DNA of 64,000 nt, taken from positions 30,845 to 94,844 of the forward strand of contig CAYXYY010000011.1 of the NCBI GenBank assembly GCA_964469495.1, read 5' to 3'. The translations under genes were made by a program, and so were the position numbers. Shown here in pieces: positions 16,517 through 35,557 of this stretch (within the stretch, counting starts at the first letter, position 1; each line of letters starts with the position of its first letter). The notes beneath the pieces are model-generated. The model did no database searches and was not told where the DNA came from. It was given only the letters and a program-made list of their open reading frames with translations. Origin of the DNA: an uncultured Planctomycetia bacterium (lineage in GTDB: Bacteria; Omnitrophota; Gorgyraeia; S143-82).

Positions 16517-17695
16517 ATGTTTAAAGATTGGCCATTACTTATCGCCATTGCATTGGCGTTCATCGCAACCTTTTCTATTTATCAGTATATGAAGACACAA
16601 CAGGAGAAAATGCAGTACCAAATAAAAGCGGCTATAGAAAAAGAAAGACAAAAATTAGAGAATGAATATAAAAAAAATATGGCCCATGTGAAAGGGCAGA
16701 GAGGTAGAGGCATAAATGTGGTTGTCGCTAAAAAAGATATTCCAGCCGGAGATGTAATTACGTCTGAAATGGTAGAATTAAGGAAAGTTCCATCATCAGT
16801 CAAAGCGCCTATGAGCGCAGGGACGTTAGATGCGGTTATAGGAAAGATGGCAAAACAGGATATCTTGGTAGGGGAACAGGTAATGCTTAACAGGGTTATT
16901 TCTCTAAAGGCTCAAAAGGGCGCTATTATCAATCCCGGGACTAGGCTTGTCACTATACAGGTGGAACAATTGGACTTGTTTAGGTTTTTAAGGCCGGGAG
17001 ACCACGTTGATATTGCCTTGATGTTCCAATTGCCGCAGTCGCAAGCGGTAACAACAGGCCTTTTCCCAGATGTCGAAATAAAGGCCATTAATGGCAGAAT
17101 CTCGTATTCTTCGCTGTTTCGAACATCTGCGCCTGCGCAGGACAAATCCAATAGAACAATTAAAAAGAGGGTCGATAATAATGCTAAAAAAACAGGGATT
17201 AGTATAGATCCTAACAAAGGGACATTGTCTTTCTCTCTGCCGCCTAAAGAGGCAGCGATTCTCTTGATGGCATCAAAACTGGGCAAGATAGAGATATATC
17301 CAAGATCTAGTCTTGATCCGGACAAGACAAAGATACCGCCGATTACTGCGGATGCTGTTTTGCAGTTCGCCCTGCCAAATATAATGGCAAAGGCCAAGAA
17401 TAATGCTGCTGTGGCGGGCCAAAAAAAGGAACAAAAGGTTGAAAAAGAACCGGAGCATGAAGCGCCAATAACCACAAGAAAGGTCAAAATAAGAAAAGGG
17501 TCTGCGGTTCAGTGGGTAGAGATTGGCGAAGAAGGTATTATCCAGGATGAGGATAAACCAAAAAAAGAGATTTCCGGGAATGTTGATAAGCAAGGGAGAG
17601 ATGGGAAGGATGCAAAGGATATAGATGAACAGAAAACGGTTGTTGATAATAGTGAGGAGGACTTACAGAAAGAAGGTGTTGTGAATGAGGTATAA
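16517..17695 (+). CDS. cpaB: Flp/Tad pilus assembly protein CpaB (RcpC), with an N-terminal TM and a SAF domain
   Basis: An N-terminal TM helix is followed by VVVAKKDIPAGDVITSEMVELRKVP...VIGKMAKQDILVGEQVM, a SAF/CpaB pattern. It sits directly upstream of a CpaC-type secretin. Confidence 0.65.
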   Translation: MFKDWPLLIAIALAFIATFSIYQYMKTQQEKMQYQIKAAIEKERQKLENEYKKNMAHVKGQRGRGINVVVAKKDIPAGDVITSEMVELRKVPSSVKAPMSAGTLDAVIGKMAKQDILVGEQVMLNRVISLKAQKGAIINPGTRLVTIQVEQLDLFRFLRPGDHVDIALMFQLPQSQAVTTGLFPDVEIKAINGRISYSSLFRTSAPAQDKSNRTIKKRVDNNAKKTGISIDPNKGTLSFSLPPKEAAILLMASKLGKIEIYPRSSLDPDKTKIPPITADAVLQFALPNIMAKAKNNAAVAGQKKEQKVEKEPEHEAPITTRKVKIRKGSAVQWVEIGEEGIIQDEDKPKKEISGNVDKQGRDGKDAKDIDEQKTVVDNSEEDLQKEGVVNEV

Positions 17696-19244
17696 TCTGT
17701 TATTTTCCGCTTTTATATTTTTAGTGTGTTTTTCTTCTCTTTCTTCTGATGCAGAGACAAATGTATATTTAAAGGCAGGCGATACAAAGGTTTTGCCGTG
17801 TCCTTCATGTCAAGAGGTCTCTATAGATAATCCTAATATCGCAGATGTTACGACTGATGGGGATTCTGTTATTGTTAGCGCTGTCAGCCCGGGTATTACT
17901 GCATTGGAATACGTCTCTGGGAGCGGGAAAAAGGATTATAAAGTAGTTGTTTGGGAAGATAACGTTCCATTTGTGGCAAATCAGGTGAGGTCTTTGCTTA
18001 AGGTTCTAAATTTATCGAATAACATTTCCGTAGGCGAAGATAAGCTGGCAGGCAAGGTTTATCTCTTGGGAGAGATATCAGGTGAAGAAAAACAAAAGGC
18101 TTTGGATAATGTGCTTCAGGCCTGTCCTTCGCCTGTAATAGTCAATCTGGTAAAAGTTAAAGACCAGCATGAGGTTATTGAAGTAAAGGTCAATGTTGCA
18201 GAGATAAGCAAGTCCGATCTGGATCAATTGGGGATAGCTTGGCCATCTTCTATATCTCTTATAGCAAGTGAAGATGTTCCCTCTGAATCAGGCGAAGAGT
18301 CCAATGGAAAGTCATTGGGCGATGCCCTTAAATTCAATAAATGGACGCGCAATGATGCTACGTGGATGCTGTCGATGTTAGAACAACAAAGCAAGGGCAA
18401 GATTTTGGCCAGTCCATCGATATTGGCAACCAGCGGCAAAGAAGCCTCTATTTTGGTTGGAGGAGAGATCCCGATTTTGATGTATGACGATGATGAACCC
18501 AAAGTCGAGTTCAGGCCATACGGCATTATTCTAAACATATTGCCGTCTATTATAGAAGGGAATAAGATAGATGTTAATTTGGAATGCGAGGTCAGTGAAA
18601 TAGACTGGACCAATTCTGTCAATGTTACATTGGCCGGAGACGACGATGACCAAAGGTTTAATGTGCCGGCCTTTACAAAGCGGAACGCCAAAACAGAGGT
18701 GATTTTAAACAACGGAGAAAGTATTATAATGGGGGGATTGTTAAAGAACACTGATACAAAAATAACATCAGGAGTGCCTGGTTTGAGTAAACTCCCTGTT
18801 TTGGGCGCTTTATTTTCCTCTAAAGATTTTCAGAAGGGTAAGACAGAGCTTATTATTACACTAACGCCCAAGATCAAGAAAGGCAATGATTCTACTCCAG
18901 CAGAAAATCTAAATCAATTGGGAGGCCTGCAAAATATAACTCTGAATAGTGATAAATCGCCGCTGCAAAGATATAAAGAGATGCTATTGAATACGATTAC
19001 CAAATCCTTTTATTACCCGGATTACGTGAAAGACAAGAAGTTGTCGGGTACTGTTTTATTAACATTACATATTGCAAGATCGGGCAGGGTGTTGGGTGTT
19101 AGAGTCAAATCGTCTTCAGGCAGCAAGGTTCTTGACAGGCTTGCAATTATGTTAATTCGAGATATTGGTTTATTTCCTCCATTTCCCGGGGATCTAAACC
19201 TAGAGGATTTGTGGATAGATATTCCTATTATATATCAGGCATGA
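17685..19244 (+). CDS. cpaC: CpaC/RcpA-type secretin with an extra C-terminal TonB_C-like domain
   Basis: It has a signal peptide, a secretin N-domain, and the secretin core (ILASPSILATSGKEASILVGGEIP...). The last ~90 aa (YPDYVKDKKLSGTVLLTLHIARSGRVLGVRVKSSSGSKVLDRLAIMLIRDIGLFPPFP) match the TonB C-terminal domain pattern. Confidence 0.75.
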   Translation: MRYNLLFSAFIFLVCFSSLSSDAETNVYLKAGDTKVLPCPSCQEVSIDNPNIADVTTDGDSVIVSAVSPGITALEYVSGSGKKDYKVVVWEDNVPFVANQVRSLLKVLNLSNNISVGEDKLAGKVYLLGEISGEEKQKALDNVLQACPSPVIVNLVKVKDQHEVIEVKVNVAEISKSDLDQLGIAWPSSISLIASEDVPSESGEESNGKSLGDALKFNKWTRNDATWMLSMLEQQSKGKILASPSILATSGKEASILVGGEIPILMYDDDEPKVEFRPYGIILNILPSIIEGNKIDVNLECEVSEIDWTNSVNVTLAGDDDDQRFNVPAFTKRNAKTEVILNNGESIIMGGLLKNTDTKITSGVPGLSKLPVLGALFSSKDFQKGKTELIITLTPKIKKGNDSTPAENLNQLGGLQNITLNSDKSPLQRYKEMLLNTITKSFYYPDYVKDKKLSGTVLLTLHIARSGRVLGVRVKSSSGSKVLDRLAIMLIRDIGLFPPFPGDLNLEDLWIDIPIIYQA

Positions 19245-19263: not shown

Positions 19264-21474
19264 ATGGGCAGGGCAATAGTTTTTTTTAGCCCCAAAGGCG
19301 GTGTTGGAAATACCTTTCTTGCCACAAATCTTGCTATTGCTTTGCAGCAAAGGGCATATAAGGTCTTGTTGTTGGATGCGGCTTTCCCAATTGCCGGCGA
19401 TGTGGCAAGGTTGTTAAGCATATTCCCAAAACAGAGTATTCTGGATATCTTCTTCTCCGGTTATACTATCCCTTATGACAATCCGCAAATTATGTCCGAG
19501 TTCCTTGCAGATTATGTGACAAAGCATGATGTTGGTGTGGATGTCTTGCCTGCAATAATCAGCCCCGGCGAGATGAAGCATATCAGTGATATCAATCCCA
19601 GTTTATTTATGAGGAGCATTAGTGATATTTACGATTTTGTTATTGTTGATGCAGGAAAGGTCTTTTCATCTTTTTTAGTAAAGTTGTTGGACAATGCGAA
19701 CCTGGTGTTGAGTGTGGTTGTCCCGGATATACTCTCCGTTTATCAGACGAAGGCGGCATTCGGCACTTTTCAGGATCTGTTTTTCCCAAAGGAGATGTTT
19801 AAACTTATATTGAACAGGGCGGAAAGCAAAGGCGGTGTTGGCATAGCAGAAGTGAAAACCGTTTTGCCGCTGGACATTATAGCTAAAATTCCGAGTGAAG
19901 GCAGGCCGGTAGGACATTCTGTTAATTTTGGTGTGCCTGTTCTGTTGGAAGAACCGAATTCCCGCGTAAGCAGCGCAATCAGGGCATTGGCAGAGAATCT
20001 GCTGGAGCCCCATATTTACATAGATAAACTCCCTATTGATGAGTTGAAAAACAGAAGAAAGGAATCCAAACATGATGTATTGGTGTCCTTTTGGGAGGAT
20101 TACGGATTAGGCGTAGAGAAAAAACAAGTGGAGAGGATAGACGAACTTGTTCTATTAAAAAAACGGGTACATAGGAAGTTGATTGATAGGGTGGAGACAA
20201 AGAAATTTGACTTTTTTAATATGACAAGAGACGAGAGGAATAAGATAAGGCAGGATACAGAGAGGATTATAGGAGAGCTATTAAGCGAAGAGACAGGGGC
20301 ATTGGTTGATGATTATGAAAAGAGAAAAATTTTAGTCAAAGAAATAGCTGACGAGGCTCTTGGGCTCGGGCCGTTAGAGGACCTGTTAAAGGACCCGGAT
20401 ATCACGGATATTATGGTTAACAACAAGGAACAGATTTTTGTTGAAAAATTTGGAAAGCTGCAGTTAACTGACAAGAAATTTATCTCTAACGAACATGTTA
20501 TTCAAACTATAGAACGTATTATCTCTCCTCTTGGCAGGAGAATAGACGAATCAGTGCCTATGGTAGATGCAAGGCTTCCGGACGGCAGCAGGGTGAATGC
20601 CATAATACCTCCATTGGCGTTGAACGGCCCAATGCTTACGATTAGAAAGTTTGGAAGGGAGCAATTTATTGCAGATGATTTGGTAAAATTCGGGAGTATC
20701 ACACAAGATATAGCCGAATTTTTAAAGGCGTGTATTGTAAGCAGGAAAAATATCATAGTATCAGGAGGCACCGGTTCTGGTAAGACCACAGTATTGAATG
20801 CCTTTTCGCAATATATCCCGTCAAAGGAAAGGATTGTGACGATAGAGGATGCCGCTGAACTTCGTTTAAATCAAGAACATTGGATTAGGCTGGAATCAAG
20901 GCCTCCAAACATAGAAGGCAAGGGGCAGATAACTATAAGGGATTTGTTTAGGAACACGCTTCGTATGCGGCCTGACAGGATAATTATCGGTGAGTGCCGC
21001 GGACTAGAGGCATTGGATATGCTTCAGGCAATGAACACAGGCCATGACGGGTCATTGACAACTATCCACGCAAATTCAACGCAAGATGTTATCTCTAGGC
21101 TTGATTCTATGATCTTAATGAGCGGCATAGAACTGCCTGTAAGAACGATTCGTGAGATGGTTGCTTCGGCCATAGACATCATTGTGCATACGGCAAGGTT
21201 AAGCGATGGTTCAAGAAAGGTGATACAGATTACAGAGGTAATTGGCATGTCGGATGACATGATTAACCTAAATATGAAAGATATATTTGTCTTTGTTCAA
21301 AAAGGTGTGGATGAAAAGGGCAAGATCTTGGGAGAATTTTCTGCCACAGGATATATCCCGTCTTTTTATGAAGAATTGGGCCGTATGGGAATAAAGTTGA
21401 GTGAGGGGATGTTTGAGCCAAGGCAAGTATATTATGATATTGTTAAACAAGACAAAAAGCAAGAAACTCACTGA
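19264..21474 (+). CDS. cpaF: Fusion of a CpaE/TadZ-like ParA/MinD-family domain (degenerate Walker A, KGGVGNT) to a CpaF/TadA VirB11-family secretion ATPase
   Basis: The N-terminal ~250 aa have a deviant Walker A (SPKGGVGNTFLATNLA) where N replaces the usual K. The C-terminal half has Walker A GGTGSGKTT, Asp/His boxes (DRIIIGECRG, GHDGSLTTIHANS) and the CpaF signature. Confidence 0.8.
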   Translation: MGRAIVFFSPKGGVGNTFLATNLAIALQQRAYKVLLLDAAFPIAGDVARLLSIFPKQSILDIFFSGYTIPYDNPQIMSEFLADYVTKHDVGVDVLPAIISPGEMKHISDINPSLFMRSISDIYDFVIVDAGKVFSSFLVKLLDNANLVLSVVVPDILSVYQTKAAFGTFQDLFFPKEMFKLILNRAESKGGVGIAEVKTVLPLDIIAKIPSEGRPVGHSVNFGVPVLLEEPNSRVSSAIRALAENLLEPHIYIDKLPIDELKNRRKESKHDVLVSFWEDYGLGVEKKQVERIDELVLLKKRVHRKLIDRVETKKFDFFNMTRDERNKIRQDTERIIGELLSEETGALVDDYEKRKILVKEIADEALGLGPLEDLLKDPDITDIMVNNKEQIFVEKFGKLQLTDKKFISNEHVIQTIERIISPLGRRIDESVPMVDARLPDGSRVNAIIPPLALNGPMLTIRKFGREQFIADDLVKFGSITQDIAEFLKACIVSRKNIIVSGGTGSGKTTVLNAFSQYIPSKERIVTIEDAAELRLNQEHWIRLESRPPNIEGKGQITIRDLFRNTLRMRPDRIIIGECRGLEALDMLQAMNTGHDGSLTTIHANSTQDVISRLDSMILMSGIELPVRTIREMVASAIDIIVHTARLSDGSRKVIQITEVIGMSDDMINLNMKDIFVFVQKGVDEKGKILGEFSATGYIPSFYEELGRMGIKLSEGMFEPRQVYYDIVKQDKKQETH

Positions 21475-21478
21475 GAAT

Positions 21479-21772
21479 ATGTCTGTTGCCAGGACCTTCT
21501 TTCAAAAGGCAAAAGGCCTGTTAGGTTCTCTTTCTATTGCTGATGATTATGCCCTGCTTTTTGAAGCGTGCTCTTCAGTCCATATGATAGGAATGGTCTT
21601 TGCCATAGATGTGGTGTTTTTGGACAAGGGCAAAAGGGTATTAAAGGTGGTAAAGGCGCTTAACCCTTTTAGCTTTGCATTTGGCCCGAAGAGGACATTC
21701 TATACGATAGAGGCAAAGGCCGATACATTGTCTAATCAGATAGAACCGGGAGACGTATTAGAGTGGGAATAA
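21479..21772 (+). CDS. DUF192 family protein (COG1430)
   Basis: The segment ...RTFFQKAKGLLGS...HMIGMVFAIDVVFLDKG...FYTIEAKADTL...GDVLEW follows the DUF192 pattern. An ATG at 21479 is in frame. Confidence 0.6.
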   Translation: MSVARTFFQKAKGLLGSLSIADDYALLFEACSSVHMIGMVFAIDVVFLDKGKRVLKVVKALNPFSFAFGPKRTFYTIEAKADTLSNQIEPGDVLEWE

Positions 21773-23310
21773 AGCCGGCAAAGACGTTTTTGTTTTTCTG
21801 TGTTATGTTTCAATGCGCCATGGCATATGCCGGGTGGACGCAGTTGGGGCAAAGGGTATGCTCCGGCAGCATCTCGGCCATGTGCGCTTGGCATGGCGGC
21901 CTTTTGATATCATGTGATGATTATCTATATGAAAACACGGATGATATCTGGGCAAGGCGCGCGCGTATCAGGGGGCGGTTGTATGAGCCTTCACAGATTG
22001 TGCAGAGTAAATGGGGCGTGTTTGTTGCGACCAAACAGGGCATGTTTTGGGCGCAAAACCCTTCAGAAAGATTGACGAGGATCTTTAAGCCTGAGAAAAA
22101 GGCGGTTTACTCACTGGCCATTGGCAATAAGGGCTTGTTTTGCGGCACATCCCAACATGTTTTTCTTATCAGCCCTGGTGGGGAGGTCATCTCGGAATTG
22201 TTGGCCAGCAACAGCCCTGTTTTATCTATGTTGTTTGATGAAAAAACAGCTAATCTTATCTGCATAACAGAGCAGGGCATTGTGATCTATGATGTGGATA
22301 AAAGGCGGATTATTATGCATAGGGATCTGGGCAGGAATAATGAAGATGCGCGTTGGGACCCATCTGCTCATATCATAACAATAACCCGGACGGGCAGGGT
22401 TGTTTTTGCGTATAGAAACGATTTGTATGCCATAGACATAGAAAACAACGCGCTTTCTATGGTTGTCAGCCTGCCGTCGAGCGTAATGGCTATTGCGTCT
22501 GTTAAAGGCAAGGTTATAGCGGCCTGTGAAGGAAGCGTTTTTAAGATAGATGCGCTTCTTGAGCAGGCAGATAAATATCTCGTTGGGTTAGATGCAAAGA
22601 GATTTGTTGATATGGTAAAGGAAGAAAACAGGGTCTTCTTGGCTAGTGAAGATGCTGTATTTGTGTTAGATGCTGGTGAGCTGTCTTTTAAGGCGATTGA
22701 CAAGGATATAGATTTACTATACAGATACCTGTCTTTTGAGCCGGATATTATTTTACTTCAAGAAAAGGCTATGGAATATGCAGACGTGATGCCGGATAAA
22801 ATTAGGGAATGGAGGGCACTGCTTAAAAAACGCGCCCTTTTCCCGCAGGTATCGTTTGACATTGGCGGGGATAACAATAAAAGCGTTTCGGATACAGGGT
22901 CAGTGTGTTGCAGCGGTAGTTATGCGGTTGGGCCTGATGATAAGACCGTTAGCAAGAATCTGGACTGGCAGGTGAGTTTTGAATGGGACCTTGCTGACCT
23001 TATATGGGATCCCCAACACACCTCGATCGATGCCCGCTCGAAACTTACGGCTGAGCTCAGAGATGATATCTTGGACGATTTAAATCAGACGTATTATGAA
23101 CGCAGGCGCAGGCAACTAGAACTTTTATCCAATCCCCCGAGGGAATTGGATAAGGCCATTACTATTCTGTCTAAGATAGAGAGGCTGCGCGCTGACATAG
23201 ATGCGATGACAGGCGGATTTTTGAGCAGGTTTTTAAAACAGAACGGACATTACAATTGGGAAAGAGAGTTTATAAAGGAGGTATTGAGTGAAAAAAGAGT
23301 GGGAAAATAG
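21763..23310 (+). CDS. Hypothetical secreted protein (signal peptide; likely beta-propeller-like N-terminal region and a coiled-coil C-terminal region)
   Basis: It is a long ORF with an N-terminal hydrophobic signal. I recognise no motif. Confidence 0.45.
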   Translation: MGIKPAKTFLFFCVMFQCAMAYAGWTQLGQRVCSGSISAMCAWHGGLLISCDDYLYENTDDIWARRARIRGRLYEPSQIVQSKWGVFVATKQGMFWAQNPSERLTRIFKPEKKAVYSLAIGNKGLFCGTSQHVFLISPGGEVISELLASNSPVLSMLFDEKTANLICITEQGIVIYDVDKRRIIMHRDLGRNNEDARWDPSAHIITITRTGRVVFAYRNDLYAIDIENNALSMVVSLPSSVMAIASVKGKVIAACEGSVFKIDALLEQADKYLVGLDAKRFVDMVKEENRVFLASEDAVFVLDAGELSFKAIDKDIDLLYRYLSFEPDIILLQEKAMEYADVMPDKIREWRALLKKRALFPQVSFDIGGDNNKSVSDTGSVCCSGSYAVGPDDKTVSKNLDWQVSFEWDLADLIWDPQHTSIDARSKLTAELRDDILDDLNQTYYERRRRQLELLSNPPRELDKAITILSKIERLRADIDAMTGGFLSRFLKQNGHYNWEREFIKEVLSEKRVGK

Positions 23311-23982: not shown

Positions 23983-26900
23983 TTAATTAATGGTCTTATG
24001 GCTGTTGAAGAAGGACTCGTCGCTTGTCGTATACCATGTCTCAAAGGATGTCAATGTAAGGTCTCCGGGGGGATAATTGTTTGAATAGTCTTGGGCGATC
24101 GTTGTATAGTTTTGATAGCCGTTGTTTATGCTTCCGACCAGGTCATGATTTGAACCAAAACCACCGCCACTGCTTCCTCTCCAGTAGTCGGACCAATGCT
24201 TTGAGGTAGTCCCCTTTACATTGGGAAACATCCCTTTTTTGGTGATAGATAATCCGTTAGCTGGTTGTGAGCCATCGTTATTGAGGCGCCATGCTATGTT
24301 CTCAACTGTGATGCCTGTTGGATATCCGTCAGGCGTTATCAAAGATGCGTATATATGCATATCCCTGTCGTTATCATCAATCATAGGCATTGAACGTTTC
24401 TTTGGCCCGTCTATTGGGCTATGAGCCTTGGCAAAGCTGTCTCTGACATAATTTATAAGGCTATCCGGGTTGGTTGTATACCCAGGATATTGTTGTGGGA
24501 AATCATTAACCACATCAAAGTCATCTGAAAGTTCACAGTATTCCTTATCTACACGCTCTTTATAAGTATCTTCTTGCTCATCATAGTAATAATCATAATA
24601 TGCCTTTACAGCTGCGTCTATGACCTGAAGTTTTTCCTGTTTTACCTCCTCGCTATCAGAGGCCTTTGGCCATATATCGTCAGCGTATTTGACGTAGTCT
24701 TCAATGCCGGAATTTTTTGCATATTCGCTCAGGTATCTAAGCATTTGCGCTTTTTGCCAGCCTTCATAAAAATAAGGGTCCGCATATGCAGGCGCGTTGG
24801 CATAGGGATTTCTATCATCATAGGCAGGCAGGTTTGCATGCTTGCCCAAGAGGTATATCTCGCTATCGCTGATGATAGATGTGGGCTGCCAGTCCTGTTC
24901 ATCCTCGGCCTTGTCCTTTTGATAGTTTATATCGCCTTGAATAAACACAGGGTTTGGCGAGACGAATGTTATGCCGCCCTCTCTGGGAATAGTTTCCGCG
25001 TTTTTGATCTTCAGCGCCCGGGAAGAGTGATAATCGTGATCTTTGCTAGTAGGTTGTTCCTTGTAATTGACCCATATAATGCCGTTTGTTTGATTTATAA
25101 GGTTGATATTATTGGCAAGTTCAGCCACATCTATTGTAATGGTATCGGCATGGTATACAGTCGGCAAGGAATTGGGCCCAGCAGATTTCACGCCCGTTAT
25201 AAAGGATTCCTGCGCTATCCATGAGGGCGGTTGTATAAACATGGGGTTACCTTCATCATAAACCTTTGTGCCTTTTACGTAAACCGTCAGGTCCCCGTCG
25301 TCTTCATATCCTATCCAGATACCTCCTTCCTTTGCCTTGGAGCTAAACGTATTTTCTATCTCTACCATAGACATGTCTTTTGCGCCGGTATTCCTTTCCC
25401 TGATTTTTCCATAGAGGTTCATAGAGTTGTTATAGATATTGTTGCTAGCCAAGCTATAATTGCCCTCCAACCAGTTTCTAAACGCTTCTGCCTGGTTGGA
25501 ATAAGACGTGTTAAGGAAATTGACGTCTTTATTGTCATCCCAATGCACAGAGCCGTAATGTTGGTCTGCCGGGTCATCTCCCCTGTAGTATCCGTACTGA
25601 GCGTATTTGCGCGGGTCGTTGTAATAGTCATGCGGCATATTGTTAGGAGCTACCTTCCCCGTCCAATAGTTTGCATCACCCCAAAACCTGCGTTCGTATT
25701 CAGGGTTAAATGTCACTGTTTCTGTATGATTGGCGTCTATAGAAAATGTGTAGTTTATATCCTCCTTTACCTTTAATGTAGCGGTCTCAGCTGATTCATC
25801 CCAAGAATATTTAATAGTTATTTCAGGGGTGGGAGGTATGCCAAGGCTGGCATCGCCTGCGGCTGTGTCTATCCCGTCAAATACCTGAGCGAATATCTGA
25901 GGCTTGCCGTCAACGATTTTTACGTCATTGTTAGGGTCTTCATCGCTATTTAATGCCTCGTTTACTTTGGGGTTAGCTGTGATGTGCCATTTATCATGAA
26001 CATCTTGGTAATAAATCCGTATGTATTTTACGGGTTTTTCTTCTTGATGCGAGTCGTTCCACCAAATATCCTTTACCCCTTCATGCGAGTAGTCTCTATA
26101 GATAAACTTGGAGTAATTTGCATCCGATCCATTTTCGTTTTTAAGCCTTACCGGCGGGGCGACAGTGATATCATCGTTGATATCCTCTGTGCCATTTGTG
26201 AATACAAACCTTGCTGTATCGTATGGATCAGGATAGTTTTGGGCAAATATCCCATATGGACTTAGTCGATCATTGTACTCTCCATACCACTCAGACGATT
26301 TATCAGAAGGATACACCCCCCCAGGGTATGGAAAGGGCTCTGTTTTTGTGCTGATAGTCAAGAAGGCATACCCGTCCAATTGTTTATTGTTATAATCATA
26401 AAGATCGCACACATCTAGATAAAATGGTTCGTATTTGCCGACAGTCCTGACTTTAAAAACGCCTTCTGAGTTTGTGCTTACTAGTTTTGGGTCCTTTATT
26501 TTTGCTGGTCCATCAAATATGATGTCGCCATTGACGTATATCTTGCCAAACCCCTGGCAGTCATATGTATAATTGCTGTTACCAGGATACCAGTTGCCGT
26601 TTATGAACTTAAAATAGTTATACAGAGAGTCTGCGTTTATGCTGACTCTGACTACCTTTGTCTTGCCGTTTAGCTCTGCCTTTGACATAATCCACCTGAT
26701 AGAGCTATCATCGTCTGTCTTGTATATGCGGACCTTTATTTGGTCATTGCCAAGCGGCCGGTAAAAACCATTAGTGTCTATATCAGCGCCTGTAATAGAA
26801 GGATTTTTGGCCTTATCCGGATTACTATTTGGCATGTGGATGAATTGTCCATTTGGATTTACTCTATGCGTAAACCAGTTAAACCCGTGCATTTTTAGCT

Positions 26901-27096
26901 CAACAAAGGCGTAGTGTATGCCTCTCTCTGCCAAGTATGTGAGCTGTTGATCCTCTAAGATGTTTTCAGACATCTTTAGGTTGACTTGTTGGGTCTGTAT
27001 GATTGATACGATGCCGGCAATGACAAGCCCGTTGAGGATAAAAGACCATAATATCAGGGCCATTCCCTTGTCTTTTTTGAACCTGTTTCTCCTCAT
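23983..27096 (-). CDS. Giant (1037 aa) PilX_N/GspK-like minor (pseudo)pilin-anchored surface protein, a putative pilus-tip adhesin
   Basis: The N-terminus RRNRFKKDKG|MALILWSFILNGLVIAGIVSII is a GspK/PilX-type prepilin-like hydrophobic segment lacking Glu5. It is followed by the QQLTYLAERGIHYA PilX_N pattern. The remainder is a large N/Y/D/G-rich extracellular domain. Confidence 0.6.
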   Translation of the reverse strand: MRRNRFKKDKGMALILWSFILNGLVIAGIVSIIQTQQVNLKMSENILEDQQLTYLAERGIHYAFVELKMHGFNWFTHRVNPNGQFIHMPNSNPDKAKNPSITGADIDTNGFYRPLGNDQIKVRIYKTDDDSSIRWIMSKAELNGKTKVVRVSINADSLYNYFKFINGNWYPGNSNYTYDCQGFGKIYVNGDIIFDGPAKIKDPKLVSTNSEGVFKVRTVGKYEPFYLDVCDLYDYNNKQLDGYAFLTISTKTEPFPYPGGVYPSDKSSEWYGEYNDRLSPYGIFAQNYPDPYDTARFVFTNGTEDINDDITVAPPVRLKNENGSDANYSKFIYRDYSHEGVKDIWWNDSHQEEKPVKYIRIYYQDVHDKWHITANPKVNEALNSDEDPNNDVKIVDGKPQIFAQVFDGIDTAAGDASLGIPPTPEITIKYSWDESAETATLKVKEDINYTFSIDANHTETVTFNPEYERRFWGDANYWTGKVAPNNMPHDYYNDPRKYAQYGYYRGDDPADQHYGSVHWDDNKDVNFLNTSYSNQAEAFRNWLEGNYSLASNNIYNNSMNLYGKIRERNTGAKDMSMVEIENTFSSKAKEGGIWIGYEDDGDLTVYVKGTKVYDEGNPMFIQPPSWIAQESFITGVKSAGPNSLPTVYHADTITIDVAELANNINLINQTNGIIWVNYKEQPTSKDHDYHSSRALKIKNAETIPREGGITFVSPNPVFIQGDINYQKDKAEDEQDWQPTSIISDSEIYLLGKHANLPAYDDRNPYANAPAYADPYFYEGWQKAQMLRYLSEYAKNSGIEDYVKYADDIWPKASDSEEVKQEKLQVIDAAVKAYYDYYYDEQEDTYKERVDKEYCELSDDFDVVNDFPQQYPGYTTNPDSLINYVRDSFAKAHSPIDGPKKRSMPMIDDNDRDMHIYASLITPDGYPTGITVENIAWRLNNDGSQPANGLSITKKGMFPNVKGTTSKHWSDYWRGSSGGGFGSNHDLVGSINNGYQNYTTIAQDYSNNYPPGDLTLTSFETWYTTSDESFFNSHKTIN

Positions 27097-27243
27097 CTCA
27101 CACCCCTTTGTTTATGTATAACAATACCACATAGGCACTATATGCCTTGCTCATCTATAACTATAACCGCTTTTTGCGCATTGTCAACTTTTTAAATGGA
27201 ACTTTGGGCGGGCCGCGGGTCTGTTATTCTGTGTTTGCTATTC

Positions 27244-30409: not shown

Positions 30410-31012
30410 TTAGATGTAGTTGGATAGATCAGACAGCGCAAAGTGTGGTTCGTCTATATATTGTGGCGAAATGCCAAGTTTTTTAGCCAATGTGAGTGAA
30501 TTATGCGGCGCTATTATCAGGTCTTTTTGGGATATCAGGAATTTTATTTTTGCGTTTTTTAACAAGTGGAATCCATTGAACGGTTGAGACAGGGTTTCAA
30601 GTTCGTTGATTAGAGTATGTTTGTCTTGTTTTAGGTATTGTTTTAAGCATGTCCTGGAAAATCTTTCAAACGCAGTTGGTTTGCCGTAAAAACATAGTTT
30701 ATAAAACCTGCGCATGGTTTTTTCTTTGTCCTGATGCAGTGATGCGATAAAATTGGCAACGTTGGTTCTGGGCATTTCAATGCAGGAGTTGAGTATAATT
30801 ATCTGTTTGAAAGGTATGTTTTTTTGTTTTTCCATAGATCTCTCAAATCGTTTTATGCCTAATGACCATATAAGGCAGGTGTTGTATTTGCCAAAATTAT
30901 GGACATTTTTATAGTCTATAAACTCTATAGCGTTATTGTCCACAGCATTGTTCACAGCGCATAAATCAAATGCCCAGCCATAGAAAAATATAATTCGTTT
31001 TTTATTTTTCAT
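30410..31012 (-). CDS. bioG: Putative pimeloyl-ACP methyl ester esterase BioG (DUF452-like)
   Basis: It is about 200 aa, with IIFFYGWAFD near the N-terminus and an IWSLG (GxSxG-like) nucleophile motif. It lies immediately downstream of and overlapping bioF. Confidence 0.5.
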   Translation of the reverse strand: MKNKKRIIFFYGWAFDLCAVNNAVDNNAIEFIDYKNVHNFGKYNTCLIWSLGIKRFERSMEKQKNIPFKQIIILNSCIEMPRTNVANFIASLHQDKEKTMRRFYKLCFYGKPTAFERFSRTCLKQYLKQDKHTLINELETLSQPFNGFHLLKNAKIKFLISQKDLIIAPHNSLTLAKKLGISPQYIDEPHFALSDLSNYI

Positions 31013-32114: not shown

Positions 32115-32939
32115 TTATGTCTCTGCGCGCGACTTTACTCTGACGGTATATGTCTTGCCGTCTATTGTAAACGTTGCGGAAATGAAATCGTTTGTGTTAG
32201 CAAATGTCAGGTTTGAGACGCCGCTGGATATTACATAGGTAGTTGTCCCGATCTTTCGAACCAGTTTGTCTGCGCTTAAAAATATTTCAACCGGGCCTAT
32301 CCATTCTATTTCGCCGTCGCTGGCTATGGATTTTCTATAAAAGGATAAGTGGCTATTGCCTTCTGACAATGTAATCGTATGCGATGTGTCAGTCCCTGCC
32401 TGCCTGAATTCTTTGGATAACGTGTTAAAAATAAGCTGTCTCTGATTAGTCGTGTCCATAACAGTGCCTAACTTATTCATAATAATTTGGCCACGCAGGA
32501 AGATTACACTGACTGCCAGAAGTATTGTAATCATCATGCCCAATCCTATGAGCAGTTCTACGAGTGTCATGCCGTTTGTCTTTTGTTTTTTGTATTGCGG
32601 CAGGAGTATCATCGTAATTGTTCCCAAGAAAAGAATGGCAAAGATGACCTGCAACCAGTAAGGTATGATCATCAATTGGTGTTGTTTTTGCTTTTTGTCA
32701 GATTTGAGGTTATTTTGCGTTTGTTTTTCTGCCCTATTTTCTTTTTGTATTTTTTCTGCCCTTTCGACAAGCTCTATTTGCCTTTGTTTCATTATCTCGC
32801 GTGATTGCCTTTTTATCTCCTGCATAATCTTTTGGGCGTCTTTGATATCAGTATTTTCAGGGACAAAGGCGTTTAATTTGGCCCCGAAAAGCAGGAATGA
32901 TACGGCCAGTATGGATATAATCTTTACAGTTCTTTCCAT
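32115..32939 (-). CDS. GspJ-like pseudopilin carrying an unusual 109-aa N-terminal extension (signal peptide plus Lys/Gln-rich coiled coil). An alternative start at 32612 would give a canonical 14-aa prepilin leader.
   Basis: An internal class-III signal ...QYKKQKTNG|MTLVELLIGLGMMITILLAV has Glu5. There is no in-frame stop between the upstream extension and the pilin module. Confidence 0.5.
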   Translation of the reverse strand: MERTVKIISILAVSFLLFGAKLNAFVPENTDIKDAQKIMQEIKRQSREIMKQRQIELVERAEKIQKENRAEKQTQNNLKSDKKQKQHQLMIIPYWLQVIFAILFLGTITMILLPQYKKQKTNGMTLVELLIGLGMMITILLAVSVIFLRGQIIMNKLGTVMDTTNQRQLIFNTLSKEFRQAGTDTSHTITLSEGNSHLSFYRKSIASDGEIEWIGPVEIFLSADKLVRKIGTTTYVISSGVSNLTFANTNDFISATFTIDGKTYTVRVKSRAET

Positions 32940-34627
32940 GCAACCACCTCTGGTTCAGAAAGGTCCTTTGGCAGGTAAAAGGTATCACTGAATTGCTTTA
33001 TTCTTGGGTCGTAATTCATTGTAATGCTTCCACTGAATATGATTGCCTCGTCTCTAGAAACGATCCCTCCGTTAATCGTAAGGCTGCCGGTTCTTCCTGT
33101 AAAGGCGTGATTGGTGTACATAAATGCATCTATTCTCGTAATCTGATAATAGGGTTCTGATAGAGAGGAGAATGAATAATTATCCAAAGAACTTTCATAA
33201 TACCTTCTATTTGTTCCATCGCTTTTTTTGCCTCCATCATAATTTGTATAATTGCCGTCAAAATAGGGCAGGCCATTTTTGTAGTATTTGACATAACCGT
33301 TTGTGCTATCAGTATCATCAACAGGGTATTCCCCTGTGAAAGAAGGCTTTATATAATTCTTGACGTAATTCCAAGATGAATCCGTATAATCTCCCACGAC
33401 AACATTGCCTTTGGCCGCAAGTCCTAAAAAGTCTTTTGATTGATTCTCCTGAAGTGTCTGTTCGGGATTAGTATCCGGTTTAGGCCATACAGGTGGATCA
33501 TCGTATGTTATATTGCCCAATATGTGGACGTTTCTTCCAGCATAGATAGTGCCTTGTCCTTTTACAACGCCTTTGATTAAAACATCTCCCGTGATAACAA
33601 CAGGCCCGTTTATCTCTATAGGATTAGACGGTGTGCCAACAAGAACTATGTCGCCTTCCAATACAGCATCCACTATAACACTGCCGCCTTGTTTGATCTG
33701 CCCGCCGGCGTTTGTTACGACTGTCTTGTAATAATCCAGATCACCCAGATAGGGCATAGGAACAACCTCTTGGGCATTATATTGAGAAGATGTTCCGTCA
33801 TATCCGAACTCAAATTCATAGGTATCCAATAAACCGTTTCCATTTGTATCTTCTCCTGTGTCTAATATGCCGTTGTGGTTTAGATCTTCGCTTGGCGCTG
33901 TTGGATTGCCCGGCCGCGCAATAGACGGGGCAGTTGCAAGATAAGTTGACCAGGAGTCATATCTATTGGTACCAAGGACGTTTCCTCCTGATCCAAGAGA
34001 GGGGTTGTATGCGGCATACGCATTTCCATTTACTTTAGGGTTGTATCGAAAAGAGAAATCCCCATTGGAACGCACGTCCCCGTTTGCCGTAATAGAACTG
34101 CCCCAAAACCATCCGAAATTATTAATGAAATAGGTATAGTCAAATACCTTCGAGGCCTTTAGCCCGTATCTTATAACAGCTTGTATTGTCTTTGTCGTAG
34201 AACCGCTAGTGCCTTGAGCCTGTAATATAACATCACGTCCGTCCCCATTATCTATTCTCTGCACGTCGATTATAGATACAGTATAACTTCCAGTTGCAAG
34301 TGTGCCTGTCACAGGGAAAGAATATGGAGGAGATTCTGATAGCAGGGAATCAAACCACGAAAAAGATGAGATGCTCCATGCCCCAGTGGGGCTATAAAAA
34401 TGAGCGGAAAACAAAATCTCCAATTCCTGTTTTACCTTTTCTATCCCTGATTGAGCAGCATATATTGCCTGCAGAGATTCCTGAGATCTTAAGGTGAGTT
34501 TCGATGTGTTGTATGCCCTGATAGAGCCTGCAACCACAAGCCCTGTCAACAACAATAATATGACATAGGAGCTTATCATTATGAATCCGTTATTGTCTTG
34601 TATGTGTTTTTTGGATACCCCAAACAT
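32924..34627 (-). CDS. Large (567 aa) PilX_N/GspK-like minor pilin with a Ca-binding-like D/N/G repeat
   Basis: The N-terminus ...DNNG|FIMISSYVILLLLTGLVVAG...SQESLQAIYAAQSGIE is the PilX_N pattern. An internal DLNHNGILDTGEDTNGNGLLDTYEF resembles TSP3/EF-hand-type calcium-binding repeats. Confidence 0.6.
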   Translation of the reverse strand: MFGVSKKHIQDNNGFIMISSYVILLLLTGLVVAGSIRAYNTSKLTLRSQESLQAIYAAQSGIEKVKQELEILFSAHFYSPTGAWSISSFSWFDSLLSESPPYSFPVTGTLATGSYTVSIIDVQRIDNGDGRDVILQAQGTSGSTTKTIQAVIRYGLKASKVFDYTYFINNFGWFWGSSITANGDVRSNGDFSFRYNPKVNGNAYAAYNPSLGSGGNVLGTNRYDSWSTYLATAPSIARPGNPTAPSEDLNHNGILDTGEDTNGNGLLDTYEFEFGYDGTSSQYNAQEVVPMPYLGDLDYYKTVVTNAGGQIKQGGSVIVDAVLEGDIVLVGTPSNPIEINGPVVITGDVLIKGVVKGQGTIYAGRNVHILGNITYDDPPVWPKPDTNPEQTLQENQSKDFLGLAAKGNVVVGDYTDSSWNYVKNYIKPSFTGEYPVDDTDSTNGYVKYYKNGLPYFDGNYTNYDGGKKSDGTNRRYYESSLDNYSFSSLSEPYYQITRIDAFMYTNHAFTGRTGSLTINGGIVSRDEAIIFSGSITMNYDPRIKQFSDTFYLPKDLSEPEVVAWKEL

Positions 34628-34631
34628 TGTT

Positions 34632-35027
34632 TTAACTGCCTGCCTTTAAGAATTCAACACTCATATTAACAGGTGCACTCTTGTAATTCCACGATATTGT
34701 TGCATTTATCTTTAAAGGGTCTGCATATGCCCCGTCAGGAAAGGTTACTGATAATGACTCGTTGGGCAATGGCATTGCGAGGTTGCTTTGTGCCCACACT
34801 TGCCAGTTTGTTGAGGTTATCTCATCTGTGTTAAGCGCTTGCATCTCTTCAAGGACTATCTGGAGCTGATATATAGCTGACGCCTTTTCATTATCAAGCC
34901 CGACTAAGATGGTATTTGATATAATAGAGCCTAAAATGCCAATTAAAGCTGTTCCCAAGAAAAAGGCGGCAATCAATACCTCTAACATGCTGAATCCATT
35001 TTGCCTTTTTCCCTTTATCTGCTTCAT
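34632..35027 (-). CDS. GspI-like small pseudopilin (class III prepilin signal)
   Basis: KRQNG|FSMLEVLIAAFFLG is a canonical prepilin cleavage/methylation motif with Glu5. The protein is 131 aa. Confidence 0.6.
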   Translation of the reverse strand: MKQIKGKRQNGFSMLEVLIAAFFLGTALIGILGSIISNTILVGLDNEKASAIYQLQIVLEEMQALNTDEITSTNWQVWAQSNLAMPLPNESLSVTFPDGAYADPLKINATISWNYKSAPVNMSVEFLKAGS

Positions 35028-35113
35028 TATCCGCTCCTTAAATTCATCCTATAACGCCTTCAAAGGGCGCAAAAAAAGCGCAGGGCAAAAAATGCCCTGC
35101 GCTCAGATTCAAA

Positions 35114-35557
35114 TTATATACTTGACCAAGTTGTGCCGCAACTAGAGCCAGTATAATCTGTGCTTTCTATTGTTCCGCCTTGAGTTACCCTATAACACTT
35201 GGTACCCAAATTGCTGTTTTGTGGTGTTGCCCGAACCGTATAAGTTGTAGTTGTAGGAGTCCCAACGATGCTGATATTATATCCCGATTTTAAAATGCTG
35301 GCAGTAGTTACATTATACCTGCTTGGAAGGTATCCATTAGCGTGTAGTGTGGAGAAAAAGTTCGTTGTTGGATACTGGTCATTTGCAATGAAGTATCCTT
35401 CAGCGGCCGTTCCGATTGTCCTGATCTCTGCGAGTGCTGCCTGCTGGTTTGCTGTCCTTCTGTTTCCAAGCAAGGAAGGCAGGGATATGCCAACCAAAAC
35501 AGCTATGATCGCAACGACGATCATCATTTCAATAAGTGTAAAACCTTTGTTTTTCAT
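35114..35557 (-). CDS. gspG: Major pseudopilin GspG-type (type II secretion / T4P-like pilin)
   Basis: MKNKG|FTLIEMMIVVAIIAVL and ...ALAEIRTIGTAAEGYFIANDQYPTT match the GspG hallmark (...LDNGRYPTTEQGL...). Confidence 0.8.
   Translation of the reverse strand: MKNKGFTLIEMMIVVAIIAVLVGISLPSLLGNRRTANQQAALAEIRTIGTAAEGYFIANDQYPTTNFFSTLHANGYLPSRYNVTTASILKSGYNISIVGTPTTTTYTVRATPQNSNLGTKCYRVTQGGTIESTDYTGSSCGTTWSSI

What the first reader, a model, noticed from the sequence alone, without database searches (positions are those of the whole stretch)
23983..27096. 1037-aa protein anchored by a GspK/PilX-like pseudopilin N-terminus, a putative pilus-tip adhesin
The N-terminus (..KDKG|MALILWSFILNGLVIAGIV.., with no Glu5 and a PilX_N-like following helix) is what GspK/PilX minor pilins use to cap a (pseudo)pilus.

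The remaining ~950 aa form a very large N/Y/D/G-rich extracellular region of unknown fold. Very large tip-located pilins are rare and usually mediate adhesion or DNA/cell contact.

The gene converges on the Tad-like cluster.
Basis: partly seen in the sequence, partly recalled or inferred. Interest (0 to 1): 0.6.

Follow-up and report, generated by a model that had tools for sequence, protein, structure and literature searches.

The report
Giant PilX-like pilus-tip protein, Omnitrophota
This gene encodes a 1037-residue protein whose first ~230 residues match the pilin subunit that caps type IV pili, joined to ~800 residues of unknown fold; it belongs to a small family so far traced only to Omnitrophota, and is a plausible but untested attachment protein.

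Summary
The ORF at 23983-27096 (-) is real: 1037 aa, 118.6 kDa, with its own promoter-like site, and six full-length homologues at 29-36% identity.

- The target alone hits no Pfam, NCBIfam or PDB sequence.
- The consensus of 37 relatives matches Pfam PilX_N above its gathering score.
- 33 of 37 have a basic leader ending in Gly, then about 22 hydrophobic residues. None of the 33 has Glu at +5.
- A profile-profile comparison links residues 1-228 (99% probability, E=2e-18) to a large Omnitrophota family that NCBI names "pilus assembly PilX N-terminal domain-containing protein".
- In all ten homologue loci examined, two prepilin-type genes sit directly upstream, in the order of GspI-J-K or PilV-W-X.

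The rest has no detectable relative outside the family. A central module (about 510-770) and a C-terminal motif are shared across the family. ComZ is the top structural match, but not significantly.

The implied link to the neighbouring Tad-like cluster is not supported. No Tad genes flank the homologues whose flanks were annotated, and the partner genes are type IVa/T2SS-type pilins.

Best reading: a tip-capping minor pilin with a very large distal body, probably for attachment. The tip location and the adhesion role are inferred.

The parts
23983..27096 (-). Coding sequence of the 1037-aa PilX_N-type large minor-pilin-like protein (stop codon included)
   Evidence: ORF list and translation. 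Six full-length homologues at 29-36% identity in the alignment.
27160..27187 (-). Promoter-like site TTGACA-16-TATAGT, about 64 nt upstream of the ATG. It suggests a monocistronic gene.
   Evidence: Best match in the region, 11 of 12. This is a consensus match only.
27103..27109 (-). Shine-Dalgarno-like AAAGGGG, 7-13 nt before the start codon
   Evidence: Read from the sequence.
27064..27096 (-). Residues 1-11: basic leader MRRNRFKKDKG ending in Gly, the presumed prepilin-peptidase site after G11
   Evidence: G11 is invariant in the 7-sequence alignment. 33 of 37 relatives have [K/R/N]-x-G at this position. Cleavage is inferred.
26998..27063 (-). Residues 12-33: 22-residue hydrophobic alpha1-N segment MALILWSFILNGLVIAGIVSII, with Leu rather than Glu at +5
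   Evidence: Hydropathy analysis shows this is the only hydrophobic segment. AlphaFold predicts helix 7-70.
26920..27069 (-). Residues about 10-59: region equivalent to Pfam PilX_N (PF14341)
   Evidence: The family consensus hits PilX_N at E=3.3e-6, 27.4 bits against a gathering score of 25.5, covering profile positions 1-50 of 51. The target alone gives no hit.
26407..27096 (-). Residues 1-230: conserved pilin-like N-terminal module (long helix, beta-sheet, then a GxIYVNGDI segment)
   Evidence: Shared by all relatives in phmmer domain tables. hhalign against the 567-aa PilX family gives probability 99.05, E=2.1e-18, aligning residues 1-228 with 6-231. pLDDT is mostly 70-86 over residues 50-150.
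25570..26406 (-). Residues 231-509: segment found only in the ~1000-aa subfamily, modelled with low confidence
   Evidence: Not matched in the shorter relatives. pLDDT is mostly below 50.
24787..25569 (-). Residues about 510-770: second module conserved across the family, beta-rich
   Evidence: It forms a second matched stretch in most relatives. pLDDT is mostly 76-89 over residues 580-730.
24085..24786 (-). Residues 771-1004: mostly alpha-helical segment (helices 780-891) specific to the ~1000-aa subfamily
23992..24084 (-). Residues about 1005-1035: conserved C-terminal motif PPGD(L/F)..G....W.E..(D)F(D/N)(H/K)H
   Evidence: P1009, P1010, G1011 and H1033 are invariant. The motif is present in most complete relatives.

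Best explanation
The gene encodes a PilX/GspK-class ('K-type', Glu5-less) minor pilin-like protein of Candidatus Omnitrophota.

Proposed mechanism:
1. The protein inserts into the inner membrane through its class-III-type N-terminus.
2. A prepilin peptidase probably clips it after Gly11.
3. Together with two ordinary Glu5-bearing minor pilins, it nucleates a type IVa-pilus-like filament.
4. Because it lacks Glu5, it can only occupy the topmost position.
5. Its ~800-residue acidic, N/Y/D/G/W-rich body is then carried out through the secretin on the pilus tip, where it most likely mediates contact with a surface or a host/prey cell.

Shown: the gene is real; the N-terminal 230 residues are homologous to the PilX_N family; homologues are syntenic with prepilin genes.

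Inferred: cleavage, tip location, adhesion, and which machinery is used.
For: - ORF and features confirmed.
- The family of 36 representatives shares the leader [K/R/N]xG followed by xxLI. None of the 33 parsed has Glu at +5.
- The family consensus hits PilX_N above its gathering score.
- The family profile hits P0038 at E=2.8e-12. P0038 is a 975-aa protein with PilX_N at 3.5e-9. It lies behind three N_methyl pilin genes, the one directly upstream carrying a faint PilW hit.
- hhalign against the Omnitrophota 'PilX N-terminal domain-containing' family gives probability 99.05, E=2.1e-18 over residues 1-228.
- That 567-aa family sits in a pilin operon which, in a relative, is followed by a PilM_2 gene and two small unannotated genes.
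- The AlphaFold model has helix 7-70 followed by a beta-sheet over residues 77-157, with pLDDT mostly 70-86 over residues 50-150.
- All ten homologue loci examined (L001, L002, L003, L004, L005, L006, L007, L009, L010, L012) have two pilin-type genes directly upstream. At least one of each pair has the G|F(S/T)L(I/V)E motif. In five partner proteins from three loci that were scanned, N_methyl hits range from E=7.5e-5 to 0.029, two above the gathering score.
- Literature: type 4 filament tip complexes are capped by a subunit lacking Glu5, and assembly starts from them (PMC10191384). ComZ shows that a GspK-like pilin can carry a large extra domain at the tip (PMC6561018). Omnitrophota commonly encode T4aP, which has been proposed to attach them to hosts (PMC10066038).
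Against: - The target alone hits no PilX_N, N_methyl or T2SSK model.
- In this window the gene stands alone. tblastn finds no close orthologues of the two partner pilins in the 64 kb.
- No prepilin peptidase, PilB, PilC or PilQ was seen among the window ORFs that were scanned.
- Prepilin-type processing was not tested. ComZ itself is not predicted to be a PilD substrate (PMC6561018).
- The fold of residues 230-1037 is unknown. The model has mean pLDDT 58.
- The ComZ match is not significant: E=0.022, probability 0.11.
- Nothing bears directly on adhesion.
Confidence: 0.6

Rival explanations
1. It is a Tad (type IVc) pilus component, a TadG/TadE/TadF-like pseudopilin or tip protein assembled by the neighbouring Tad-like cluster and its CpaE-CpaF fusion ATPase. 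This is what the first reader hinted at.
For: The gene ends 48 nt from the last gene of a cluster with RcpC/CpaB, an RcpA-type secretin and a ParA-like + T2SSE ATPase. One relative's N-terminus gave a very weak TadF hit, E=0.076.
Against: - The orientation is convergent, and the gene has its own promoter-like site.
- No TadE, TadG or Flp model is hit.
- The consensus hits PilX_N instead.
- The annotated flanks of homologue loci (L002, L004, L005, L012) hold housekeeping genes and no Tad genes.
- The conserved partners are ~200-aa N_methyl pilins with Glu5, typical of T4aP/T2SS.
- Within the window the Tad-like cluster lacks a detectable TadB/C platform, Flp pilin or peptidase.
Confidence: 0.07
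2. It is an uncleaved, N-terminally anchored inner-membrane protein with a large periplasmic domain, such as an assembly factor or enzyme, and not a subunit that leaves the cell on a filament.
For: - A single 22-residue hydrophobic segment is long enough for a signal anchor.
- There is no Glu5.
- No experimental or predictor evidence of processing exists.
- A body of about 116 kDa must otherwise pass through a secretin.
- The target has no adjacent pilin genes in this window.
Against: - The Gly at -1 and the PilX_N-type helix are conserved family-wide.
- Residues 1-228 are homologous to bona fide PilX-family operon members.
- Synteny with two prepilins is invariant in ten loci.
- Large tip proteins such as ComZ and PilY1 are known to be displayed on T4P (PMC6561018, PMC10191384).
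Confidence: 0.15
3. It is a ComZ-like tip receptor for DNA on a competence pilus.
For: - The three ComZ chains are the top three of 350,542 PDB chains in Foldseek.
- ComZ is a GspK-like pilin carrying a large inserted domain (PMC6561018).
- The window also holds a ComP_DUS-like pilin and a secreted-nuclease-type gene next to PilN/O-like genes.
Against: - The match is not significant: E=0.022, probability 0.11, TM-scores at or below 0.13.
- The body is acidic, pI 4.7.
- No bactofilin or FapA beta-solenoid hit occurs among the target's own relatives; the only FapA hit in the 37-member scan belongs to the 567-aa protein.
- The 567-aa protein is the one sitting in the ComP-like pilin operon, and 6 of 30 sampled members of its family hit the bactofilin beta-solenoid model. 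It is therefore the better ComZ analogue.
- hhalign finds no similarity between the two families beyond residue about 230.
Confidence: 0.08
4. It is the GspK-equivalent of a type II secretion pseudopilus and acts in the periplasm to push or recognise secreted substrates.
For: The I-J-K-like gene order of the homologue loci. HIJK complexes of T2SS and T4aP are interchangeable for piliation (PMC10191384).
Against: - No T2SSK or T2SSI/J Pfam hits.
- No GspG, GspH or other T2SS genes in the annotated flanks.
- A ~1000-aa cap is about three times the size of GspK (from memory, about 330 aa). By inference it is hard to accommodate on a short periplasmic pseudopilus.
- The related 567-aa family lies next to a PilM_2 gene.
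Confidence: 0.08

Closest known systems
Omnitrophota 'pilus assembly PilX N-terminal domain-containing protein' family (about 560 aa). A member lies in this window at 32924-34627 (-).
   Same: Homologous over the first ~230 residues: hhalign probability 99.05, E=2.1e-18. Both have a Gly-terminated leader, no Glu5, the QAxYxAExGI helix, and a similar C-terminal P-x-[GK]-D-L...W motif. Same phylum.
   Different: - That family is common: at least 602 hits in the word-indexed search. It sits inside the major-pilin operon, and 6 of 30 sampled members hit the bactofilin beta-solenoid model.
- The target family is rare: 36 representatives.
- It is almost twice as long.
- Its body shows no detectable similarity beyond residue about 230.
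- It travels with its own pair of pilin genes.
PilX (P. aeruginosa type) and Pfam PilX_N (PF14341) minor pilins; GspK/PulK/XcpX of T2SS (the 'K' subunit)
   Same: N-terminal signature without Glu5. Position last in a minor-pilin gene series. Expected role as the cap of the priming complex (PMC10191384). The family consensus passes the PilX_N gathering score.
   Different: - From memory, classical PilX is about 195 aa and GspK about 330 aa with an alpha-helical insertion.
- This protein is 1037 aa.
- The target by itself fails PilX_N, and no T2SSK hit exists.
ComZ of Thermus thermophilus (PDB 6QVI)
   Same: A GspK-like pilin module carrying a very large extra domain that sterically fits only at the tip. 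It works with an adjacent minor pilin and is not a predicted PilD substrate (PMC6561018). It is the top Foldseek match.
   Different: - The match is not significant.
- No sequence similarity was found.
- ComZ is roughly half the size (the crystallised chains are 498-518 residues).
- ComZ binds DNA, whereas the target body is acidic.
- A beta-solenoid has not been demonstrated here.
Modular pilins (PilB and PilC of Streptococcus sanguinis) and the tip minor pilins CofB/TcpB of type IVb pili
   Same: The concept of a pilin module with a grafted functional or adhesive module, located in the tip complex (PMC8179133, PMC9934059, PMC10191384).
   Different: Those grafted modules belong to known domain families, such as vWA-like and lectin-type. 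Here no known domain is detectable. No sequence relationship was found.
PilY1/PilC tip adhesins of type IVa pili
   Same: Similar size class, about 1000 aa or more. Proposed location on top of the minor-pilin complex, with a role in adhesion (PMC10191384).
   Different: PilY1 is not a pilin and has no pilin-type N-terminus. No PilY1/PilC domain hit was found here. In the homologue loci no PilY1-like gene accompanies the trio, so this protein may combine the PilX and PilY1 roles (inference).

Membership tests
PilX_N-type (K-class) minor pilins | Class-III-type N-terminus: short basic leader ending in Gly/Ala, followed by about 20 hydrophobic residues | tested here: met
   The target reads MRRNRFKKDKG|MALILWSFILNGLVIAGIVSII. 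33 of 37 relatives have the same layout.
PilX_N-type (K-class) minor pilins | No Glu at mature position 5 | tested here: met
   Leu at +5 in the target. None of the 33 parsed relatives has Glu there.
PilX_N-type (K-class) minor pilins | Match to Pfam PF14341 at or above the gathering score | tested here: inconclusive
   The target alone gives no hit, even at E<=10. The family consensus gives 27.4 bits against 25.5, E=3.3e-6, covering profile 1-50 of 51. Two members give E=0.014-0.02, and 1 of 37 gives 2.5e-4.
PilX_N-type (K-class) minor pilins | Demonstrable homology to recognised PilX_N proteins | tested here: met
   hhalign against the 567-aa family gives probability 99.05, E=2.1e-18. In that family 6 of 30 members hit PF14341, and NCBI names it as PilX N-terminal domain-containing. 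The family profile also hits P0038 (PilX_N at 3.5e-9) at E=2.8e-12.
PilX_N-type (K-class) minor pilins | Encoded after other minor-pilin genes (I/J or V/W type) | tested here: inconclusive
   Met in all ten homologue loci examined. Not met for the target itself, which is monocistronic and has no partner orthologues in the window.
PilX_N-type (K-class) minor pilins | Pilin fold: long alpha1 helix packed on an antiparallel beta-sheet | tested here: inconclusive
PilX_N-type (K-class) minor pilins | Cleaved by prepilin peptidase and located at the filament tip | not testable with these tools
   Needs biochemistry or imaging.
GspK (T2SS minor pseudopilin K) | Match to T2SSK Pfam models, and genes of a T2SS nearby | tested here: not met
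   No T2SSK hit for the target or among the 37 relatives. No Gsp genes in the annotated flanks.
ComZ-like pilins (pilin fold with an inserted beta-solenoid) | Significant structural match to 6QVI, or a recognisable beta-solenoid | tested here: inconclusive
   The ComZ chains rank 1-3, but at E=0.022-0.53 and probability at or below 0.11. No bactofilin or FapA hits occur among the target's own relatives.
Tad pseudopilins (TadE/TadF/TadG) | TadE-like or TadG-like N-terminal domain, and conserved linkage to tad genes | tested here: not met
   No such Pfam hit for the target or the consensus; the best is TadF at E=0.076 in one relative. The adjacency to Tad-like genes is not seen in the homologue loci with annotated flanks.
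PilY1/PilC tip adhesins | C-terminal PilY1/PilC beta-propeller domain; not a pilin | tested here: not met
   No such Pfam hit. The N-terminus is pilin-like.

The most novel reading that the evidence does not exclude
The family is an Omnitrophota-specific device that merges the PilX cap and a PilY1-like effector into one ~118-kDa polypeptide. Its ~800-residue body would be a new fold, displayed on the tip of a retractile type IVa pilus, that recognises (and perhaps enzymatically attacks) the envelope of the host or prey cell of these ultra-small bacteria. Several paralogous pilin-pilin-cap cassettes per genome would provide alternative specificities.
Probability: 0.15. Interest if true: 0.7.

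Novelty: new variant of a known kind. Interest (0 to 1): 0.42.

Why it matters
Omnitrophota are uncultured, mostly ultra-small bacteria. They are suspected to live as predators or parasites, and type IVa and Tad pili are the main genomic clues to how they attach to hosts (PMC10066038).

A lineage-restricted, very large Glu5-less pilin travelling with its own two minor pilins is a concrete candidate for the part of the pilus that touches the partner cell. It is currently unnamed and carries no domain annotation in the databases searched here. Recognising it as a PilX-class cap gives a testable handle, through antibodies, pull-downs and expression in enrichments.

It also extends the known size range of pilin-module fusion proteins. 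If it turns out to be merely a divergent PilX with a decorative domain, the gain is only better annotation.

Tried and rejected
**Searches with the target or its family that found nothing useful**
- The target alone against Pfam, NCBIfam, PHROGs and PDB sequences gave nothing.
- The word-indexed 5.8-billion-protein search found only the target itself. Run with the family profile, it added only P0038.
- Family profiles against PDB sequences gave only sub-threshold hits. The top one, a Geobacter prepilin, aligns leader to leader with the Gly in register but at E=0.21. The Nup98 hits look like chance.
- The 567-aa protein and its family profile against PDB sequences gave nothing.

**Structure**
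- Single-sequence AlphaFold failed, with mean pLDDT 30.
- Foldseek against PDB found no hit at E<=0.001. The viral library also gave nothing.

**Other tests**
- The first genome-contig scan, with the single protein, found nothing.
- No internal repeats were found by self-hhalign.
- No similarity between the target family and the 567-aa family was found beyond residue about 230.
- The 200-aa ORF at 30410-31012 was considered as a lost partner pilin and rejected, because its sequence is not pilin-like.
- The 515-aa ORF at 21763-23310 was considered as a TadB/C platform and rejected, because it has no T2SSF hit and does not look like a polytopic membrane protein.
- tblastn with the partner pilins of the homologues found no orthologues in the window.
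Full report
**1. Observation**

The minus-strand ORF 23983..27096 exists exactly as described and encodes 1037 residues.
- It starts MRRNRFKKDKG-MALILWSFILNGLVIAGIVSII-QTQQ...
- A purine-rich AAAGGGG lies 7-13 nt before the ATG.
- The best sigma-70-like match of the region, TTGACA-16-TATAGT, lies about 64 nt upstream at 27187-27160.
- The upstream neighbour is a divergently oriented phosphoglucose isomerase gene. The downstream neighbour is the convergent DUF502 gene that ends a Tad-like cluster. The gene therefore looks monocistronic.
- The protein is 118.6 kDa. Its only hydrophobic segment is residues about 10-35. Residues 81-1037 have pI 4.7.
- It is rich in D, N, Y and G: 9.1, 8.5, 7.5 and 6.7%.

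**2. A real gene from a small family**

The target hits nothing in Pfam, NCBIfam, PHROGs or PDB sequences. The word-indexed search of 5.8 billion proteins returned only the target itself.

An exhaustive HMMER scan of 1.84 billion cluster representatives found 36 proteins at E<=0.001.
- Six align end to end (P0003-P0008). Identity is 29-36% in the family alignment and 30-38% in the phmmer listing.
- The others are mostly 750-1100 aa.

Local domain tables show what is shared family-wide:
- residues about 1-230;
- residues about 510-770;
- a C-terminal motif, YExxF...PPGD(L/F)..G....W.E..DF(D/N)HH.

Residues about 231-509 and 771-1004 are peculiar to the ~1000-aa subfamily. No internal repeats were found.

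In a species-representative genome collection, all five matching loci lie in three MAGs titled Candidatus Omnitrophota, and two of those MAGs carry two paralogues each. The closest relatives of the neighbouring 567-aa gene are also Omnitrophota. The window is therefore very probably from that phylum.

**3. The N-terminus**

33 of the 37 aligned sequences have a short basic leader ending in Gly, then x-x-L-I and 22-30 hydrophobic residues. None has Glu at +5. About 40 residues further on lies a conserved QAxYxAExGIxYA helix. G11, A56, G59 and E66 are invariant in the full-length alignment.

The target alone does not reach any PilX_N score. The consensus of the family's first 76 residues does match Pfam PilX_N (PF14341): E=3.3e-6, 27.4 bits against a gathering score of 25.5, covering profile positions 1-50 of 51 and starting at the K-G junction.

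A consensus can flatter a short hydrophobic model, so three independent links matter.
- The family profile finds P0038 at E=2.8e-12. P0038 is a 975-aa protein with PilX_N at 3.5e-9. It lies behind three N_methyl pilin genes, the one directly upstream carrying a faint PilW hit.
- A profile-profile comparison was run against the family of the 567-aa protein encoded at 32924-34627 (-), using a target-family alignment that excludes that protein. It gives probability 99.05%, E=2.1e-18 over 198 columns, aligning target residues 1-228 with 6-231. This reaches well beyond the membrane helix.
- That second family has at least 602 members. NCBI names it 'pilus assembly PilX N-terminal domain-containing protein [Candidatus Omnitrophota]'. 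PF14341 is hit in 6 of 30 sampled members, best E=9e-8.

AlphaFold2 with the 7-sequence alignment gave mean pLDDT 58 and pTM 0.48. It predicts one continuous helix over residues 7-70, followed by beta-strands over 77-157, with pLDDT mostly 70-86 over residues 50-150. That is the pilin layout.

The evidence does not favour it. The hydrophobic stretch is 22 residues, no small-x-small site follows it, and the conserved Gly sits before the stretch, not after. No signal-peptide predictor was available, however.

**4. Genomic company**

In every homologue locus with upstream sequence, two pilin-type genes of about 190-215 aa sit immediately before the large gene.
- The loci are L001, L002, L003, L004, L005, L006, L007, L009, L010 and L012. 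L008 duplicates L002, and a few loci come from closely related genomes.
- At least one of each pair has a leader ending in Gly followed by F(S/T)L(I/V)E.
- In the five partner proteins from three loci that were scanned, N_methyl hits range from E=7.5e-5 to 0.029. Two exceed the gathering score.
- The order, two Glu5 pilins followed by a Glu5-less large protein, is that of GspI-GspJ-GspK or PilV-PilW-PilX.
- Where flanks were annotated (L002, L004, L005, L012), they hold housekeeping genes and no Tad genes. The only secretion-type neighbour is a 367-aa T2SSE ATPase gene about 2 kb upstream in L004.

The target itself lacks these partners. tblastn with the partner pilins finds only N-terminal helix similarity in the window. 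They may lie elsewhere on the genome: the source contig is 97 kb and the window covers 64 kb. Alternatively, the protein may use the minor pilins of the nearby pilin operon.

**5. That nearby operon**

A c-di-GMP-I riboswitch at 35732-35832 (-) precedes, in order:
- a ComP_DUS-like pilin;
- a second pilin;
- the 567-aa PilX_N protein;
- a further pilin-like gene.

6 of 30 sampled members of the 567-aa family hit the bactofilin beta-solenoid model. In a relative, the same four genes are followed directly by a PilM_2 gene and two small unannotated genes.

PilN- and PilO-like genes and a PilJ-type chemoreceptor are also present in the window. The PilX_N families of this phylum therefore belong with type IVa-like machinery.

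The Tad-like cluster next to the target has RcpC/CpaB, a secretin with a TonB_C tail, and a ParA-like + T2SSE fusion. No platform protein, Flp pilin or peptidase was detected in it within the window. Its adjacency to the target is not seen in other genomes.

**6. The body (residues about 230-1037)**

- No sequence relative exists outside the family.
- hhalign finds no similarity to the 567-aa family beyond residue about 230.
- The best-modelled part is residues about 580-730, with pLDDT mostly 76-89 and short regular strands. A helical segment follows at 780-891.
- Foldseek against the PDB puts the three chains of ComZ (6QVI) in ranks 1-3 of 350,542 chains, but at E=0.022-0.53, probability at or below 0.11 and TM-scores at or below 0.13. 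This is a lead, not a result.

ComZ is nevertheless the best-understood analogue. It has a GspK-like pilin domain with a ~380-residue beta-solenoid inserted before the last strand. It was argued to fit only at the pilus tip, it pairs with the adjacent minor pilin, and it is not predicted to be a PilD substrate (PMC6561018).

**7. Mechanism proposed**

Established knowledge of type 4 filaments says that assembly starts from a complex of minor pilins, capped by the one subunit that lacks Glu5. The filament then grows from tip to base (PMC10191384).

Applied here:
1. The protein inserts into the inner membrane by its alpha1-N helix and is probably clipped after G11.
2. It bundles with two Glu5-bearing minor pilins and primes the filament.
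3. It then rides on the tip through the secretin, exposing its acidic, aromatic- and Asn/Asp-rich body.

Shown: the homology of the pilin module and the synteny.

Inferred: cleavage, tip location, passage through a secretin, and function.

Adhesion to a surface or a host cell is the most likely function. Three things point that way: the architecture (a conserved pilin module joined to a large lineage-specific body), the precedent of modular pilins and PilY1 (PMC8179133, PMC10191384), and the proposed host-attached lifestyle of Omnitrophota (PMC10066038). DNA binding of the ComZ kind is less likely, given the pI of 4.7 and the presence of a better ComZ analogue in the window.

I put about 0.95 on the PilX_N-class pilin module, about 0.65 on a tip-complex subunit, and about 0.4 on an adhesin.

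**8. Comparison and novelty**

The kind is known: Glu5-less cap pilins, and pilins enlarged by grafted domains. The broader Omnitrophota PilX family is already named in databases.

What is new:
- this particular rare family is unnamed in the sources searched and has no Pfam domain on record;
- it is about 1000 aa, with roughly 800 residues of undetectable ancestry;
- it is packaged as a self-contained pilin-pilin-cap cassette that can occur twice per genome.

I class it as a new variant of a known kind, of moderate interest.

Noticed in passing
window 35732-35832 (-) and the operon 35557..32115 (-): A c-di-GMP-I riboswitch (67 bits against a gathering score of 59) precedes a pilin operon: a ComP_DUS-like pilin (147 aa), a second pilin (131 aa), a 567-aa PilX_N protein and a further pilin-like ORF. 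In a relative (L015) the same genes are followed by a PilM_2 gene and two small genes. This suggests that c-di-GMP controls type IVa pilin expression at the RNA level.
   Followed up: partly
window 32115-32939 (-); L015 7702-8580: In the 274-aa ORF after the 567-aa gene, the class-III motif (KTNG|MTLVELLIG) lies about 120 residues from the N-terminus. It follows a signal-like segment, a charged stretch and a second hydrophobic segment. The 292-aa orthologue in L015 has the same layout (KRAG|FSFVELM; BLASTP E=2e-20 over nearly the full length). This would be a prepilin with an unusually long, membrane-spanning leader. Unexplained.
   Followed up: partly
window 37291-39626 (-): PilN-like (197 aa) and PilO-like (202 aa) genes are followed by a 126-aa ORF without hits and a 259-aa protein with a staphylococcal-nuclease domain. 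Pairing a nuclease with pilus alignment genes hints at DNA uptake or scavenging.
   Followed up: no
window 17685-19244 (+) and 19264-21474 (+): The Tad-like cluster has unusual fusions: an RcpA-type secretin with a C-terminal TonB_C domain, and a ParA/CpaE-like domain fused to the T2SSE (CpaF/TadA-like) ATPase. No T2SSF platform, Flp pilin or A24 peptidase was detected in the cluster. The 515-aa ORF at 21763-23310 has no family hit.
   Followed up: partly
window 51863-56392 (-): A 1509-aa ORF combines a complete AcrB-type RND transporter (residues 5-1025) with outer-membrane efflux protein (OEP/TolC-like) repeats (from residue 1079) in one polypeptide. This is an unusual inner-membrane/outer-membrane fusion.
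   Followed up: no
window 1924-4740 (+): A 938-aa protein has a Peptidase_M1 domain (302-500) and a C-terminal Omp85-type barrel (679-938), an uncommon combination.
   Followed up: no
window 60374-62002 (+): A chemoreceptor with a PilJ N-terminal domain, HAMP and MCP signalling domains, of the kind that regulates type IV pili. It is further evidence that the organism has a T4aP system.
   Followed up: no
L008 and L009 (MAG S143_82); L007 and L010 (MAG M10_metabat2_scaf2bin.014): Two Omnitrophota MAGs each carry two paralogous pilin-pilin-large-cap cassettes, at 26-30% identity to the target. These may be alternative pilus tips.
   Followed up: partly
window 49697-50719 (+): A 340-aa protein ends in a type I dockerin domain (E=5e-8), which is unexpected outside cellulosome-forming organisms.
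   Followed up: no
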